The notes beneath the pieces were generated by a model. The model had not been told where the DNA came from, made no database searches, and saw only the letters and a program-made list of their open reading frames with translations. A program made the translations under genes and the position numbers. Positions 6,266 through 18,059 of a DNA stretch of 54,183 nucleotides are shown piece after piece. Positions within the stretch are counted from its first letter, which is position 1, and each line of letters opens with the position of its first letter. The DNA is from a virus (taxonomy: Duplodnaviria > Caudoviricetes): the IMG/VR virus record IMGVR_UViG_3300031949_000050, positions 1 through 54,183 of that record; one strand, written 5' to 3'.

Positions 6266-6658
6266 ATGAAGAACGTACGCTTGTTCGCCTTTAGGCTGTT
6301 GCCGTACTTCCTGGGGACGGTAGCGGTGCTGACGCTGATGGTGCCGGCGCTGCTTCTGGCCCAGAGTCCGGCACCGCCAACGCCGCCGAATCCTGCGGAA
6401 CTCGGGGCTCAGTTGATCCCTCAACTGGTGTCGATCGTGGTCATCCCCTTCGTGGTGTACCTCGTGCGGTTGGGTCTGCCGAAGATCCCGCGCATCGCGG
6501 TCCCTGTGGTCGTGTTCGCCCTGGCGAGTCTCGCTGACTACTTGGGCGGCCTGGTCACGGGGGGCACGTTCAGCGTGCTGACCGCCGCGGCCATTACCGC
6601 GGGAGCGGTGCTGTTGCGTGAGGTGGTGACCACGCTGCAGGAGCACGGGTTCAACTGA
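6266..6658 (+). CDS. Multi-TM membrane protein, holin candidate
   Basis: GGAGGT RBS, several hydrophobic segments, IPRIAVPVVV motif, close to the endolysin. Confidence 0.55.
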   Translation: MKNVRLFAFRLLPYFLGTVAVLTLMVPALLLAQSPAPPTPPNPAELGAQLIPQLVSIVVIPFVVYLVRLGLPKIPRIAVPVVVFALASLADYLGGLVTGGTFSVLTAAAITAGAVLLREVVTTLQEHGFN

Positions 6659-14662: not shown

Positions 14663-15748
14663 ATGACTGACGAGACGGCCGCGCCGACCGCGGAAGCAGA
14701 GGCCACAGAGGTCGAAGAGACGGCAGAGGTAGAAGCCGCCTCCGAGACGGAGCGGGCCGAGGACGCAGAAAAGCCGGAGAGCGAAGGGACGGACGAGTCC
14801 GCCGAGCAGGAGCAGGAGCAGGTAGACCTGCTCAAGAAGTTCAAGGGTGACATCAAGGCGGCGGATCGGTCGTACTGGCACGCCGTGAACCGGGCCACGC
14901 GCGTGCAGGACGAGAACCGCGTGCTACGCGAGCGGCTCTCAGAGCTGGAGCAAGGATCGAAGGCTCGCCCGGCCGAACGGGAAGAGCCTCGCACCGAGGA
15001 ACCCCTGACGTCGGAGGACATCAAGCGCATCGACATGGAGCTGTCTGAGGTCGATGGCGAGATGAAGCAGGCCAAGACCGATTACGAACAGGGGTTGCTG
15101 GACATCGGTGAGGCTGACAAGGCCATAGCCAAGATCGAGGGCAAGCTCGAGGATGCGCTCGAGGAACAAAAGCCGGCGCTCGAAGCGCGGCTCGAGGCGG
15201 CCAGGGTGAAGCGGCTCCAGATCATCAGGGACGCCAAGGGGGCGCTCCGTTGGCATCAGGAGGCCAAGCATCGCGGCGGGCGACTCCGGGCCGAGCGCTC
15301 TACCGCAGAGCGCATGGTCAAGATGGAGCAGACCAACGCGCAGAAGGTCGAATCGGAGCGCATGGAGGTGTACCGCGACTTCCCCGTGGAAGTGGATGCG
15401 ATGTTCGAGCAGGCGTGCATCGACTTGGCGGTGTCGAAGGAAGACCGCGAGGACTTCTGGGAGATTGTAAACCAAGACCTCATGGCCAAACTGTGGGCGG
15501 CCGGAGCTCAGGGGCACAGCATCGCGGACGTGAACGTGGAGGGGATCATCAAGGGCCGGGTGCAGAAGCTCATGGCGCGTATCGACGGCGGCCGGGGCGA
15601 GTTCGCCAAGAAGTCGAAGGAGGCCCTGGAGCGGGCGAAGGCGAGCGGGACCAAGGTCGTGGCCCCCGGCTCTCGGGCGGTGGTGGGTAAGCCGAAGCCG
15701 GATCAGATGGCCATCGCCCGTGCGGCGCTGCTCAAGCGGGGGCTGTGA
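14663..15748 (+). CDS. Capsid scaffolding protein (putative)
   Basis: AGGAGA RBS, very acidic N-terminus, long coiled coil, upstream of the capsid gene. Confidence 0.7.
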   Translation: MTDETAAPTAEAEATEVEETAEVEAASETERAEDAEKPESEGTDESAEQEQEQVDLLKKFKGDIKAADRSYWHAVNRATRVQDENRVLRERLSELEQGSKARPAEREEPRTEEPLTSEDIKRIDMELSEVDGEMKQAKTDYEQGLLDIGEADKAIAKIEGKLEDALEEQKPALEARLEAARVKRLQIIRDAKGALRWHQEAKHRGGRLRAERSTAERMVKMEQTNAQKVESERMEVYRDFPVEVDAMFEQACIDLAVSKEDREDFWEIVNQDLMAKLWAAGAQGHSIADVNVEGIIKGRVQKLMARIDGGRGEFAKKSKEALERAKASGTKVVAPGSRAVVGKPKPDQMAIARAALLKRGL

Positions 15749-15765: not shown

Positions 15766-16344
15766 ATGAGGAAGCGTAGGATCTGGGCGATGGCGAAACG
15801 TGGCCGAGCCGCCCAATGGGCCCGAAACCCGAAGGCGGAATTGCTTGCTAGAGCCAATCTGTCCGTCTCGGGCTGTTGGGAATGGCAGGCTGCGACGCAG
15901 AACCAAGGCTATGGCGATCTGGGCTTTGGTGGGAAACGATGGCTAGCTCACCGACTGAGCTACACGCTACTCGTTGCTCCAATCCCGGACGGGCTGACCA
16001 TAGATCACCTGTGTCGAAACAGGCGTTGCATCAGGCCAGACCATTTGGAAGTGGTCCCGATGAAGGAGAACATCCTTCGTGGTACCAGTGCCTCGGCGAA
16101 CAATGCGCGCAAGGCGGTGTGCCCTCGTTGCGGTAACACCTACAGCCGCGATTCAATTCGTGGCTGGAGGCGTTGCCGGACGTGTTACAACGACTGGCAT
16201 AGGGCTCACAGAGCCCGACAGCGTGACGGACGACCCGCACGCTCGTTCGACGTACCAGGCCAAGCGGAGCCGACCTCGAGCTTGTCACTGGAAGTGGGCC
16301 AGGCGTTCTGGTCCAAGTTCATTGGCGACCTTGTGCGTACGTAA
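15766..16344 (+). CDS. Free-standing HNH homing endonuclease
   Basis: GCWEWQ...GYG...AHRLSY...IPDGLTIDHLCRNRRCIRPDHLEVV...EN, then CPRC...CRTC. Confidence 0.9.
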   Translation: MRKRRIWAMAKRGRAAQWARNPKAELLARANLSVSGCWEWQAATQNQGYGDLGFGGKRWLAHRLSYTLLVAPIPDGLTIDHLCRNRRCIRPDHLEVVPMKENILRGTSASANNARKAVCPRCGNTYSRDSIRGWRRCRTCYNDWHRAHRARQRDGRPARSFDVPGQAEPTSSLSLEVGQAFWSKFIGDLVRT

Positions 16345-16377
16345 TCGTGCGCGCATGGCCTAAACGAGGTAAGTCGA

Positions 16378-18059
16378 ATGGCTACTGGAGCCTCAATCCT
16401 TTAGGGGCTCGTTAAACCCTCTCTGATCAAGCTGAACCCTGAGATTGGGAACAGACTGCAAGCAGGCACGAGCCGGGCAGCAGTAGAGACTAAGCGAGAG
16501 GGCACCGAAAGGTGATGCGATAGTCCGTCCTCTGGCGAAGGCGAAGCCGGAGAGGCTGGCGGAAACGACCAGCCCGGTGAGGTGAGCGTAGTCTCACAGG
16601 TAACAGCAGAGTCGAGGACATTAGCACAGAACTGAAGAACCTCTAAAAAAGGGTGGAGGTTTAAAACCCTCTCTGATTGACTTGGACCCTGAGATGGGAA
16701 CAAGGCGGAAGGCCAGTGGCCACCGTGACAGACTGAGCGAGAGGGCCGCCGCGAGGCGGATGCGACAGTCGGGTCTGCATCGAATTGGAAGATGCAGAGG
16801 TTGGCAGAAATGACCAACCCGCGCCGCAAGGCGAGGTAACAGACCCGGATGACCCTCCGGGCTCATTCGAAGAGCCTGTCAACAAGGAGGCCCCGTATCG
16901 GGCCGCCTTGAACCGCGTCGATCTGAAGATGGTCGAAGGGATCGCGAAGATTCCGCTCGGCCTGCACTCGGCGTGGAACGTCAGCATGACGTCGGACGTC
17001 GGGACGTTCAACAGCCCTATCGACCCCACTCGGGTGCAGGGCGAAGTCACGCCGGAGCTGTTCTACGGGTCGTTCCAGATCGGCGTGAAGACCAAGATGG
17101 CCGCGAAGTCCGGGAAGTCCACGTTCCATCAGGGTGGGACGATGGCGGACCGGATCGAGAAGACGGTGGAGGATTTGGGGAAGTACATCAACCGGGTGTA
17201 CGCGGGCAGCAACCGCGGCGCGCTCGGGGTGGTGGAGGCGGACGGCGCGAACACGATCACCTTGGCTCGCCCCATCGGGGCGATCCTCGTGAACGTGAAC
17301 ATGCGCATCGAGGTTCGGGACGCGCTGACCGCGGGCGCGATCCGGGACTCGCTGTCGAACCGCACGATCACGGCGCGCAACAAGGACACTCGGGTCATCA
17401 CGTACGGCGGTGCTAACCAGACCGCCGTGGCCGGGGACTTCGTGTTCATGGCCGGCTCCTACGGCCGGACGGTGAACACGCTCAACGACATCGTGGATGA
17501 CGGGACGACGGTGGATTCGATCTTCGGCCAGTCGCGCACGACCTACCCATCGCTGAAGGCGATCGTGCTCGGCAACGGCGGAACGCTGCGGAACCTGGAC
17601 GAGCAGCTCATCCTGAAGGCCATCGACGAGCCGCGGCGTGAGACCGGGAAGAAGATCACCCGCGTGCTCAGCAACTCGGGGCAGGCTCGCAAGTACGTGG
17701 AGTTCGTGGCTCCCGACCGGCGCTATCCGTTCGCGCCGGGGCAGAAGACGCCGCAGTACGGCATCGGCTACGAAGACGGCAGCCTGCCGATCGTGGCTCC
17801 TGGGGTTAACGCCAAGCTCGAGGTGGACTTCGACATCCCGACCAGGCAGATGTACTTCCTGGCCTGGGACGTGTTCGGGCTCTACCAGGCCATGGGCGTG
17901 GACTGGATCGACGACGACGCGCTGCTGAAGATGGTCCCCACGGACGGGGGCCACAAGGCGGGGTTCTTGGCGTACGTCGGTTGCGTGGAGAATCAGTTCT
18001 CCACGATGCTGGCGTGCAACTCCAAGCTGTCGGATCTTCGCGATCCGATCTACGACTGA
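16378..18059 (+). CDS. Major capsid protein, spliced: exons 16378-16393, 16612-16644 and 16852(or 16843)-18059; about 418-421 aa
   Basis: GAGGT RBS before ATG 16378. Joining the exons gives MATGAFEDISTELKNLYP(DDP)PGSFEEPVNKEAPY.... Size and position after the scaffold fit a capsid protein. Confidence 0.8.
16394..16611 (+). ncRNA. Group I self-splicing intron 1 (218 nt, no ORF)
   Basis: P1: exon GAGCCU with IGS GGGCUC (16405-16410), U-G pair at the splice site. P3: CCCUCUC (16417-23) with GAGAGGG (16496-502). P7: GACUA (16488-92) with UAGUC (16521-25). P8: CACC-GAAA-GGUG. P9 hairpins follow, and terminal G16611 restores the frame. Confidence 0.88.
16645..16851 (+). ncRNA. Group I self-splicing intron 2 (207 nt, or 198 nt if it ends at G16842; no ORF)
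   Basis: P1: exon AACCUCU with IGS GGAGGUU (16655-61), U-G pair. P10: AGGGU with 3' exon ACCCU. P3: CCCUCUC (16667-73) with GAGAGGG (16739-45). P7: GACUG (16731-35) with CAGUC (16766-70). P8: CCGCC-GCGA-GGCGG. Confidence 0.88.

What the first reader, a model, noticed from the sequence alone, without database searches (positions are those of the whole stretch)
16378..16851. Major capsid gene needs two self-splicing events: tandem minimal group I introns around a 33-nt micro-exon
Seen: ATG 16378 with RBS; exon 1 is 16 nt; intron 1 spans 16394-16611; exon 2 spans 16612-16644; intron 2 spans 16645-16851 (or 16842). Both introns have P1 with a U-G pair at the 5' splice site, P3, P7, P8 and a terminal G. 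Both splices preserve frame, giving MATGAFEDISTELKNLYPPGSFEEPV.... Unspliced RNA stops at TAG 16402 or TAA 16644. Known: phage group I introns mostly interrupt DNA-metabolism or terminase genes, and about 200 nt is close to the smallest natural examples (Azoarcus tRNA-Ile). Inference: synthesis of the most abundant virion protein depends on two guanosine/Mg-dependent ribozymes within its first 17 codons, which could act as a timer or metabolic checkpoint. Exon skipping would be in frame (33 nt) and could yield a capsid isoform. Standard gene callers would assign a false N-terminus.
Basis: partly seen in the sequence, partly recalled or inferred. Interest (0 to 1): 0.92.

Follow-up and report, generated by a model that had tools for sequence, protein, structure and literature searches.

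The report
Two group I introns split capsid gene
A soil phage's major capsid gene is interrupted within its first 17 codons by two small self-splicing (group I) introns around a 33-base exon; this is a real arrangement, but similar ones are already known in other phages.

Summary
Window 16394-16611 (218 nt) and 16645-16851 (207 nt) are two ORF-less group I introns. They leave a 16-nt exon 1 (16378-16393) and a 33-nt exon 2 (16612-16644) ahead of the capsid body.

- **Junctions:** It matches 111 of 119 homologs; the gene-caller's TTG-16785 start matches 1 of 119.
- **Model match:** a covariance model built from 17 other viral contigs, without the window, hits both elements (136 and 154 bits). 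It also hits the mycobacteriophage BAKA and LittleE introns, which were shown to splice in vivo.
- **Structure:** covariation supports P3-P9 plus the P7 pseudoknot (96% of cells paired against 33-41% in slid controls).
- **3' end of intron 2:** G16851, not G16842, is the better-supported end.
- **Rfam:** RF00028 does not detect the family.
- **Homing endonuclease:** a free-standing HNH gene sits 33 nt upstream and is absent at that position in all intron-less relatives, which suggests trans ("collaborative") homing. This is untested.

No RNA data exist, so splicing itself is inferred. The "timer/checkpoint" idea has no support. Twort orf142 (23-nt exon between two similar introns) and the cluster J capsid intron are close precedents, so this is a new member of a known kind.

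The parts
15766..16344 (+). Free-standing HNH (HNH_3 type) endonuclease gene, 192 aa. It lies between the scaffold-like gene (14663-15748) and the capsid start; its stop codon is 33 nt before ATG 16378.
   Evidence: Pfam HNH_3 E 1.5e-12 and zf-His_Me_endon; phrog_826 HNH endonuclease E 1.3e-39. No homolog lies between scaffold and capsid in the 18 viral loci or in the 17 metagenome loci that reach that far. GC 59.8% against 64.2% for the window.
16366..16393 (+). Shine-Dalgarno-like GAGG (16366-16369), ATG 16378, and exon 1 (16378-16393, 16 nt; five codons plus one base). The last 6 nt form the 5' strand of P1 of intron 1.
   Evidence: Read from the sequence. The translation of the joined exons matches homolog N-termini.
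16394..16611 (+). Intron 1, 218 nt, ORF-less group I intron. IGS/P1 3' strand 16405-16410; P3 16417-16423 with 16496-16502; P4-P6 domain about 16428-16485; P7 G16486, G16488-A16492 with U16521-C16526 (A16487 bulged); P8 16503-16506 with 16511-16514 (GAAA loop); P9 16530-16536 with 16546-16552; P9a 16554-16559 with 16569-16574; terminal hairpin 16582-16586 with 16593-16597; conserved GUAACA 16600-16605; terminal G16611.
   Evidence: R1 136.3 bits, E 7.4e-35, for 16412-16577. Helices come from RNAalifold and pair counts and from the single-sequence MFE fold. With U16393 as the 5' splice site, G16611 is the only G among 16606, 16609 and 16611 that keeps the frame.
16612..16644 (+). Exon 2, a 33-nt micro-exon (two bases, ten codons, one base). 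Its last 8 nt form the 5' strand of P1 of intron 2.
   Evidence: Encodes the conserved F-E-D-I-S-T-E-L-K-N-L stretch seen in homologs.
16645..16851 (+). Intron 2, 207 nt, ORF-less group I intron. P10 partner 16650-16654; IGS/P1 3' strand 16655-16662; P3 16667-16673 with 16739-16745; P7 C16729, G16731-G16735 with C16766-G16771 (A16730 bulged); P8 16746-16750 with 16755-16759 (GCGA loop); P9 16775-16781 with 16791-16797; P9a 16799-16804 with 16814-16819; terminal hairpin 16822-16825 with 16830-16833 (GCAA loop); GUAACA 16836-16841; terminal G16851.
   Evidence: R1 153.7 bits, E 1.6e-39, for 16662-16822. blastn gives 86% identity over 49 nt to the cluster J intron P9-P9a region. Pieces identical to intron 2 that bridge both junctions occur in soil DNA runs of three other studies.
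16852..18059 (+). Exon 3: the body of the major capsid gene, with its stop codon. The first 5 nt (ACCCU) can pair with 16650-16654 as P10.
   Evidence: phrog_14242 major head protein, E 1.8e-25. 133 homologs at E<=1e-5. An intron-less relative, L075 (83% identical), reads straight through the site-2 junction.
16785..16853 (+). False N-terminal extension produced by gene callers (TTG 16785, 23 codons). It lies inside intron 2.
   Evidence: P0001 is the window's own called ORF, 424 aa. This peptide scores >=30 against 1 of 119 homolog N-termini; the spliced N-terminus does so against 111 of 119.

Best explanation
The major capsid gene of this soil phage carries two ORF-less group I introns, of 218 and 207 nt, inside its first 17 codons.

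**How splicing would work.** Each intron recognises its own 5' exon through a P1 helix that ends in a U.G wobble. Each folds into the standard P3-P9 core with the P3/P7 pseudoknot and ends in a G. Two independent guanosine-initiated self-splicing reactions join exon 1 (16 nt), exon 2 (33 nt) and exon 3 at U16393|U16612 and U16644|A16852. This restores a 418-aa capsid protein whose N-terminus is the one conserved across the family. Unspliced RNA yields only 8- or 16-codon peptides.

**What the introns are.** They belong to a compact intron family that is widespread in viral metagenomes. The family also includes the mycobacteriophage BAKA and LittleE introns, which splice in vivo. They are most likely selfish mobile elements that persist because splicing is efficient, not regulators.

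**The HNH gene.** The free-standing HNH endonuclease gene immediately upstream is absent from intron-less relatives and, like the introns, has lower GC than its neighbours. It probably arrived with them, or mobilises them in trans by cutting intron-less capsid alleles near the insertion sites (collaborative homing).

**Shown:** sequence anatomy, covariation, family membership, exon conservation, and intron-less alleles in relatives.
**Inferred:** that splicing happens, that G16851 is the 3' splice site, and any role of the HNH.
For: 1. Exons. The joined exons translate to an N-terminus identical over its first 20 residues to P0002 (86%-identical homolog, contiguous ORF). 111 of 119 homologs score >=30 (median 60) against the spliced 17-mer.
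2. Structure. On a 19-sequence alignment, 43 pairs (P3, P4, P5, P6/P6a, P7 pseudoknot, P8, P9, P9a) are 96.2% paired, against 33.4-41.0% for slid controls. 30 pairs have compensatory changes, against 9-13 in the slid controls. 0 of 500 shuffles reach the observed values. Intron 2 itself carries a C:G swap of the outer P7 pair and the G:C form of the inner pair.
3. Family. Model R1, built without the window, gives 136 and 154 bits for the window introns, 56.3 bits (E 2.7e-13) for BAKA and 49.4 bits (E 2e-11) for LittleE. Splicing of those two was shown by RT-PCR, and for LittleE also by N-terminal protein sequencing (PMC3706429, passages read).
4. P1 with a terminal U.G of 5 bp or more is found in 17 of the 19 aligned members, including both window introns.
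5. Intron-less alleles. All 18 of 18 viral loci, and all 17 metagenome loci that contain the N-terminus, are uninterrupted. L075 (83% identical) reads AAGAACCTGT-ACCCGCC straight across site 2. R1 finds no intron in the 16 viral and 20 further capsid-relative loci searched.
6. G16851. 114 of 119 homologs keep the K-x-x-Y-x-x-G spacing, with no 3-aa insert. P10 is 5 bp with G16851 and 4 bp with G16842. In BAKA the published 3' end lies 5 nt beyond the same GUAACA motif.
7. HNH. HNH_3/phrog_826, absent at this position in relatives. Endonuclease ORFs directly flank family introns in 5 of 19 loci annotated: L030, L034, L026 and L021 upstream, L005 downstream.
8. GC content: introns 58.3% and 58.5%, HNH 59.8%, flanking genes 64-65%.
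Against: - No RNA evidence: no RNA run holds the stretch, so splicing is not observed.
- Rfam RF00028 does not match either intron, even at E<=10 on each alone. It also matched none of the 17 family elements in 17 loci, although it did find 4 other introns there.
- Intron 1 has no convincing P10.
- Intron 1's junctions are covered only by the probable source run X1.
- The window's HNH has no homolog in any of the 54 loci holding related introns (L001-L054), so nothing comparative ties this particular enzyme to the introns.
- Part of the invariance in P3 and P7 follows from the search pattern that collected the relatives. The covariation in P4, P6, P8, P9 and P9a is independent of that pattern.
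- The tree does not resolve whether the two introns are paralogs (support 0.44).
Confidence: 0.88

Rival explanations
1. Intron 2 ends at G16842, directly after the conserved GUAACA motif, or at G16848. The capsid would then carry three extra residues (P-D-D), or one extra (D), after the conserved tyrosine.
For: G16842, G16848 and G16851 are all in frame. G16842 follows GUAACA, as in several relatives whose sequences read GUAACAG. The bases after G16842 are also ACCC, so a 4-bp P10 is possible there too.
Against: 114 of 119 homologs keep the exact K-x-x-Y-x-x-G spacing and none of the 119 shows the insert. The 83%-identical intron-less allele L075 lacks the nine bases. BAKA's published 3' end lies 5 nt beyond GUAACA. 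Same-gene insertions L029, L005, L009 and L051 have tails of different length between GUAACA and the shared exon sequence. P10 is one pair longer with G16851.
Confidence: 0.08
2. Splicing is a regulatory device. The 16-nt first exon makes ribosome loading at ATG 16378 and P1 formation mutually exclusive. The two GTP/Mg-dependent ribozymes would then time or gate capsid synthesis. Exon skipping, joining exon 1 to exon 3 in frame, would make an isoform 11 residues shorter.
For: Geometry only. The 5' splice site is 16 nt from the ATG and the in-frame TAG 16402 lies in the P1 loop. Skipping is in frame. P3 strands are identical in the two introns, so a hybrid ribozyme is conceivable. Exon skipping is documented for Twort orf142 (23-nt exon) and Coxiella 23S rRNA (34-nt exon) (PMC10136302, passages). 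L034 has the same 16-nt first exon in an unrelated gene.
Against: None of the 36 related capsid loci, and none of the 119 homolog proteins, needs introns. The skipped segment is among the most conserved parts of the protein. The introns and the HNH look like recent foreign insertions: lower GC, absent in relatives. No expression data exist.
Confidence: 0.1
3. The elements are decayed, non-splicing intron remnants or another structured leader RNA. The gene would then be a pseudogene, or be translated from TTG 16785.
For: RF00028 does not recognise them. Gene callers do produce a 424-aa ORF from TTG 16785.
Against: Both score higher against R1 than the spliced BAKA and LittleE introns and CRP-118. 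All core helices are intact. Both micro-exons are preserved in frame and match homologs, which would not be maintained in a dead gene. The TTG-frame peptide matches 1 of 119 homologs.
Confidence: 0.03
4. Assembly chimera: intron sequences from other phages were mis-joined into the capsid contig.
For: The window is a metagenome-assembled record, 68% complete. Related introns are common in soil viromes. Intron 1's junctions are seen only in the probable source run.
Against: Contigs from three other studies (X2, X3, X4) hold pieces identical to intron 2. In X2 one piece bridges exon 2/intron 2 (16626-16751, 0 differences) and another bridges intron 2/exon 3 (16768-17095, 2 differences). Two mis-joins that each fall exactly at U|...G| sites with matching P1 helices and keep the frame are implausible.
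Confidence: 0.01

Closest known systems
Group I introns of cluster J mycobacteriophages (LittleE capsid gene 13; BAKA/Optimus minor tail gene) - Pope et al. 2013, PMC3706429
   Same: Same structural family: R1 gives 49-56 bits, and blastn gives 86% identity over the P9-P9a region. Both share the GUAACA motif before a short 3' tail, U at -1 and a terminal G. Both sit in virion structural genes of phages with high-GC genomes. BAKA's intron is also ORF-less (265 nt). Splicing was shown there by RT-PCR and N-terminal sequencing (passages read).
   Different: One intron per gene there, two here. The cluster J introns have a P2 hairpin, a larger P8 and a different P4-P6 region (read). LittleE's intron carries its endonuclease inside, on the opposite strand; here the HNH is free-standing upstream. 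The insertion sites are not homologous.
Staphylococcus phage Twort orf142 (tail tube gene) with three group I introns - Landthaler & Shub 1999, as described in PMC10136302 and PMC11878797 (passages; original PMC22036 not held)
   Same: A phage structural gene with several group I introns. Two similar introns flank a micro-exon (23 nt there, 33 nt here). An in-frame exon-skipped product is possible.
   Different: Different intron subgroup (IA2 there, as cited) and different host clade. Exon skipping was observed there and is untested here. Here the first exon is only 16 nt and the gene is the major capsid.
Collaborative (trans) homing: a free-standing endonuclease plus an ORF-less intron at the same site (cyanophage S-PM2 psbA/F-CphI; T3/T7-like phages) - reviewed in PMC3984707, PMC6083498
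   Same: An ORF-less intron sits in a conserved gene with a free-standing homing-endonuclease gene immediately adjacent. Endonuclease and introns are both absent from relatives.
   Different: Cleavage of the intron-less allele at the insertion site defines that system and is untested here. There are two introns 33 bp apart rather than one. The enzyme here is HNH_3, not the F-CphI type.
Coxiella burnetii 23S rRNA introns flanking a 34-nt exon (cited in PMC10136302, passage)
   Same: Two group I introns separated by a micro-exon of about 34 nt.
   Different: An rRNA gene of a bacterium; the introns belong to different subgroups (IB2 and IA3, as cited).
Small (about 206 nt) ORF-less group I introns of Jug jumbo phages (PMC12880540, passages) and Rfam RF00028
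   Same: Similar size. Abundant in phage genomes, often next to stand-alone HNH genes, and splitting essential genes into fragments that mislead gene callers.
   Different: Relationship not tested. RF00028 does not match the window introns. The subtype models used in that paper are not available here.

Membership tests
Group I intron | 5' splice site follows a U that forms a U.G wobble at the end of P1 with an internal guide sequence | tested here: met
   U16393.G16405 (6-bp P1) and U16644.G16655 (8-bp P1). 17 of 19 aligned family members have such a P1 of 5 bp or more.
Group I intron | Intron ends in G (omega-G) and exon ligation restores the reading frame | tested here: met
   G16611 and G16851. 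The joined frame gives the conserved N-terminus. The intron-less allele L075 agrees at site 2.
Group I intron | Conserved core: P3-P8 and P4-P6 domains, the P3/P7 pseudoknot and P9, in the canonical order | tested here: met
   43 pairs are 96.2% paired against 33-41% for slid controls; 30 pairs show compensatory changes; 0 of 500 shuffles reach the observed values. The helix order P3-P4-P5-P6-P7-P3'-P8-P7'-P9 is read.
Group I intron | P7 with a bulged nucleotide and the G-binding pair, followed by a conserved J8/7 | tested here: inconclusive
   A 6-bp P7 with a bulged A, and an invariant AUGCRAYAGUC segment, are present; two P7 pairs covary. That these are the G-binding pair and J8/7 rests on my recall of the Tetrahymena and Azoarcus cores, not on any call.
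Group I intron | Match to the curated model Rfam RF00028 | tested here: not met
   No match at the gathering score or at E<=10. 0 of 17 family elements were matched, where 4 unrelated introns were found. I read this as a gap in the model's coverage, because the spliced BAKA and LittleE introns (L001, L002) were also missed.
Group I intron | Guanosine-dependent self-splicing | not testable with these tools
   No RNA run is listed. Needs in vitro transcription with GTP/Mg.
Cluster J-type compact phage intron family (defined here by model R1) | Significant score against a covariance model built without the query | tested here: met
   136.3 and 153.7 bits for the window introns; BAKA 56.3, LittleE 49.4, CRP-118 91.1 bits.
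Tandem group I introns with a micro-exon (Twort orf142 type) | Two group I introns in one protein gene, separated by an exon of a few tens of nucleotides | tested here: met
   33-nt exon 2 between introns of 218 and 207 nt.
Tandem group I introns with a micro-exon (Twort orf142 type) | Exon skipping observed | not testable with these tools
   The skipped product would be in frame. No RNA data.
Collaborative (trans) homing cassette | A free-standing homing-endonuclease gene next to an ORF-less intron, both missing from related genomes | tested here: met
   HNH_3 gene 33 nt upstream. Absent at that position in 18 viral and 17 metagenome relatives, all of them intron-less.
Collaborative (trans) homing cassette | [quoted passage not shown] | not testable with these tools
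   Needs a cleavage assay.

The most novel reading that the evidence does not exclude
The HNH gene and the two ORF-less introns form one homing cassette. The endonuclease would recognise the conserved first ~50 bp of intron-less capsid genes. The two introns, 33 bp apart, would together break up that target, or two targets, and be co-converted with the HNH gene in mixed infections. As a side effect, the 16-nt first exon would put the ribosome-binding region and P1 in direct competition. Capsid synthesis would then depend on co-transcriptional splicing, and a hybrid ribozyme (5' half of intron 1 with 3' half of intron 2) could skip the micro-exon.
Probability: 0.15. Interest if true: 0.65.

Novelty: new member of a known kind. 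Interest (0 to 1): 0.45.

Why it matters
1. **Annotation.** Gene callers give this capsid a false 23-residue N-terminus and miss the conserved first 17 residues. The same error is likely wherever this intron family occurs. A strict pattern found 51 viral-contig loci; among the 19 whose flanks were annotated, portal and major-head genes were each interrupted in 3.
2. **Detection gap.** Rfam RF00028 misses the whole family, including the experimentally spliced cluster J introns. Rfam-based intron surveys of phages would therefore undercount it.
3. **Biology.** This is a clean natural case of two related ribozymes sharing a 33-nt exon, with a 16-nt first exon and an adjacent free-standing HNH gene. 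It is a convenient system for studying exon skipping, the interplay of splicing and translation initiation, and trans homing in high-GC soil phages.

It does not open a new category, because Twort orf142 and the cluster J phages set the precedents.

Tried and rejected
- **Rfam.** Whole window at gathering, the region at E<=10, the own record with RF00028 and each intron alone at E<=10 gave no group I match. The only hits were chance-level ones (L31 leader, lncRNA models, a CRISPR repeat), which I dismissed.
- **RNA evidence.** The look-up of sequencing runs listed no RNA holder.
- **DNA runs.** Read laying on four DNA runs gave no joint that removes either intron, so no intron-less allele was seen there. 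The two listed joints (16686-16802 and 17096-17178) have short sides and come from low-likeness contigs; I read them as pieces from other organisms. The small-share holders X2-X4 are used only to say that pieces identical to intron 2 exist in them.
- **HNH against family loci.** tblastn of the window HNH against 54 loci found nothing, so there is no family-wide link for this enzyme.
- **Paralogs or separate arrivals.** In the FastTree tree the two introns are sisters with support of only 0.44; by raw identity each has closer relatives elsewhere. Left unresolved.
- **GUAACA as the 3' end.** Rejected (see the first rival).
- **Host genes without a PHROG hit.** L034 downstream, L030 downstream, L017, L032, L045, L035 and L038 gave no PHROG family.
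- **Rows dropped.** Of the 51 pattern loci plus L003, 24 distinct sequences had both the J8/7 motif and a GTAACA-like motif. I aligned 17 of these and dropped 7 length outliers (L021, L023, L024, L031, L037, L043, L045). Four were exact duplicates of L008 (L011, L013, L033, L041), and L012 was too near a contig end. L006 and L025 look like chance matches in coding sequence.
- **Tools and files not available.** PMC22036 (the Twort paper) is not held, so Twort details come from passages in PMC10136302 and PMC11878797. Supplements were not consulted; the tables of PMC12880540 and PMC11878797 might list further capsid-gene or micro-exon cases.
- **Not run.** No structure prediction, complex prediction or protein-atlas search was run; none was needed.
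Full report
**What is in the sequence.** The window is a complete IMG/VR virus record of 54,183 bases, linear, estimated 68% complete. In the head-gene block the order is as follows:

- a scaffold-like gene at 14663-15748;
- a 192-aa HNH_3 endonuclease gene at 15766-16344;
- 33 nt further on, an ATG at 16378 preceded by GAGG;
- a major head protein ORF (phrog_14242) that gene callers start at TTG 16785.

Between 16394 and 16851 lie two related units.

**The exons are real.** A search with the capsid body (16854-18056) returned 133 homologs at E<=1e-5, of which 120 were listed. Most are 415-438 aa; one is the window's own miscalled ORF.

- Joining 16378-16393, 16612-16644 and 16852 onward gives 418 aa. 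Its start is identical over 20 residues to P0002, an 86%-identical homolog with a contiguous ORF.
- Against the first 70 residues of the 119 non-self homologs, the spliced 17-mer scores >=30 in 111 (median 60). The 23-residue peptide of the TTG-16785 frame does so in 1.
- All 18 related viral loci, and all 17 metagenome loci that include the N-terminus, encode it without interruption. L075, 83% identical but cut at its 5' end, reads straight through site 2.

**The intervening sequences are group I introns.**

- blastn against phage records matched intron 2 to the annotated introns of cluster J mycobacteriophages, and to the gap between two ribonucleotide-reductase CDS halves of Roseobacter phage CRP-118.
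- A degenerate pattern from the shared core found 51 viral-contig loci.
- Seventeen compact members plus the two window units align well. RNAalifold recovers P3, P4, P5, P6/P6a, P8, P9 and P9a.
- With the P7 pseudoknot added, 43 pairs are 96.2% paired against 33-41% in slid controls. Thirty pairs show compensatory changes, and 0 of 500 shuffles reach the observed values.
- The search pattern fixes parts of the 5' strands of P3 and P7, so their invariance is partly by selection. The covariation in the other helices is independent of the pattern.
- Intron 2 has its own compensatory swap in the outer P7 pair.
- A covariance model built from the 17 relatives alone scores the window units at 136 and 154 bits. 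It scores the BAKA and LittleE introns at 56 and 49 bits, and finds nothing in 36 capsid-relative loci.
- BAKA and LittleE were shown to splice during infection, by RT-PCR and, for LittleE, by N-terminal sequencing across the junction (PMC3706429, passages read).
- Single-sequence MFE folds recover the same helices.

**Evidence against this reading.** Rfam RF00028 matches neither intron at any threshold tried. It also matched none of the 17 family elements, including BAKA and LittleE, although it found four other introns in those loci. I read this as a gap in the model's coverage, but formally that membership test is not met. No RNA run holds the stretch, so splicing is inferred. Intron 1 lacks a clear P10, and its junctions are covered only by the likely source run.

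**Which G ends intron 2.** G16842, G16848 and G16851 are all in frame. G16851 is favoured for five reasons:

- 114 of 119 homologs keep the exact spacing after the conserved tyrosine.
- L075 lacks the nine extra bases.
- P10 is 5 bp (ACCCU with AGGGU), as in BAKA.
- BAKA's published 3' end lies 5 nt beyond the same GUAACA motif.
- Same-gene insertions in L029, L005, L009 and L051 show tails of variable length after that motif.

For intron 1, G16611 is the only in-frame G near the 3' end.

**Not an assembly artefact.** Soil DNA runs from three other studies contain contig pieces identical to intron 2. In X2 these pieces bridge both of its junctions.

**How it most likely works, and why it is there.** Two independent self-splicing reactions restore the capsid mRNA.

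- The introns (58% GC) and the HNH gene (60% GC) are lower in GC than their neighbours (64-65%).
- Both introns and HNH are absent from every relative examined.
- In the same intron family, endonuclease ORFs directly flank the ORF-less intron in 5 of 19 loci annotated. Head genes are frequent hosts: portal in 3 loci and major head in 3.

This fits the published picture of ORF-less introns mobilised in trans by free-standing endonucleases (PMC3984707, passages). Against that, the window's own HNH has no homolog near other family members, and no cleavage data exist. I put that part at roughly one in three.

The timer/checkpoint idea rests on geometry alone. Whether the two introns are paralogs is unresolved.

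**Comparison with what is known.** Each element of the arrangement has a precedent:

- Capsid and tail introns in cluster J phages (PMC3706429).
- Twort orf142, where two similar introns flank a 23-nt exon and exon skipping occurs, and the Coxiella 23S rRNA gene, with a 34-nt exon (PMC10136302, passages).
- Jug phages, with about 18 introns of about 206 nt per genome (PMC12880540, passages).

What is particular here is the combination: the major capsid gene, a 16-nt first exon, a 33-nt second exon, an adjacent free-standing HNH, and an intron family that Rfam misses.

**Verdict.** The finding is real and well resolved. It is a new member of a known kind and of moderate interest.

Noticed in passing
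L034:13440-13800 (IMG/VR contig): An unrelated gene (no tblastn similarity to the window capsid, no PHROG hit) has the same layout as the window. A GIY-YIG-type homing endonuclease ORF lies directly upstream, followed by an AGGAGG ribosome site. Exon 1 is exactly 16 nt, matching the window's exon 1 at 10 of 16 positions. Then comes the family intron with the highest core identity to window intron 1 (64.6%; identical P9a).
   Followed up: partly
L036:1283-1765; also L045 and L005: Family introns lie next to other group I introns that RF00028 does detect. In L036 an RF00028 match at 1531-1765 starts only about 45-55 nt after the family intron, inside a ribonucleotide-reductase-like reading frame. 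This would be another micro-exon between two introns of different types. L045 has three introns within about 2.3 kb.
   Followed up: partly
L003:2503-2676 (Roseobacter phage CRP-118, OR420741.1 35073-35246): The GenBank record annotates two separate 'ribonucleotide reductase' CDS with nothing between them. R1 scores the gap at 91 bits, so this is probably an unannotated group I intron splitting one gene.
   Followed up: partly
L001, L002 and the 15 other loci: Rfam RF00028 missed all 17 members of this intron family, including the experimentally spliced BAKA and LittleE introns. In the same loci it found 4 other introns. This is a blind spot for Rfam-based intron surveys of phages.
   Followed up: yes
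window 16600-16605 and 16836-16841; alignment A2 columns 247-252: A TAACA core, usually preceded by G (GUAACA in both window introns), is invariant in all 19 aligned introns and is also present in BAKA. It sits after the last hairpin and 1 to about 38 nt before the 3' end. I found no conserved pairing partner; its role is unexplained.
   Followed up: partly
L069:3504-3716 and L078:3422-3634: Two intron-less relatives carry a distant homolog (31-34% identity) of the window's HNH just downstream of their capsid gene instead of upstream. HNH genes of this type seem to settle around capsid genes in this phage group.
   Followed up: no
L022, L031, L040 (major head genes); L004, L008, L014 (portal genes): Members of the same intron family interrupt head-morphogenesis genes in six further viral contigs. 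L022's capsid belongs to the same PHROG (14242) as the window's, but there the intron lies near the 3' end of the gene.
   Followed up: partly
L030:5477-6523: The stop-free frame of the endonuclease ORF upstream of the intron runs on into the intron itself (to 6523; the intron spans about 6308-6538). The endonuclease may end inside the intron's 5' part. Not examined further.
   Followed up: no
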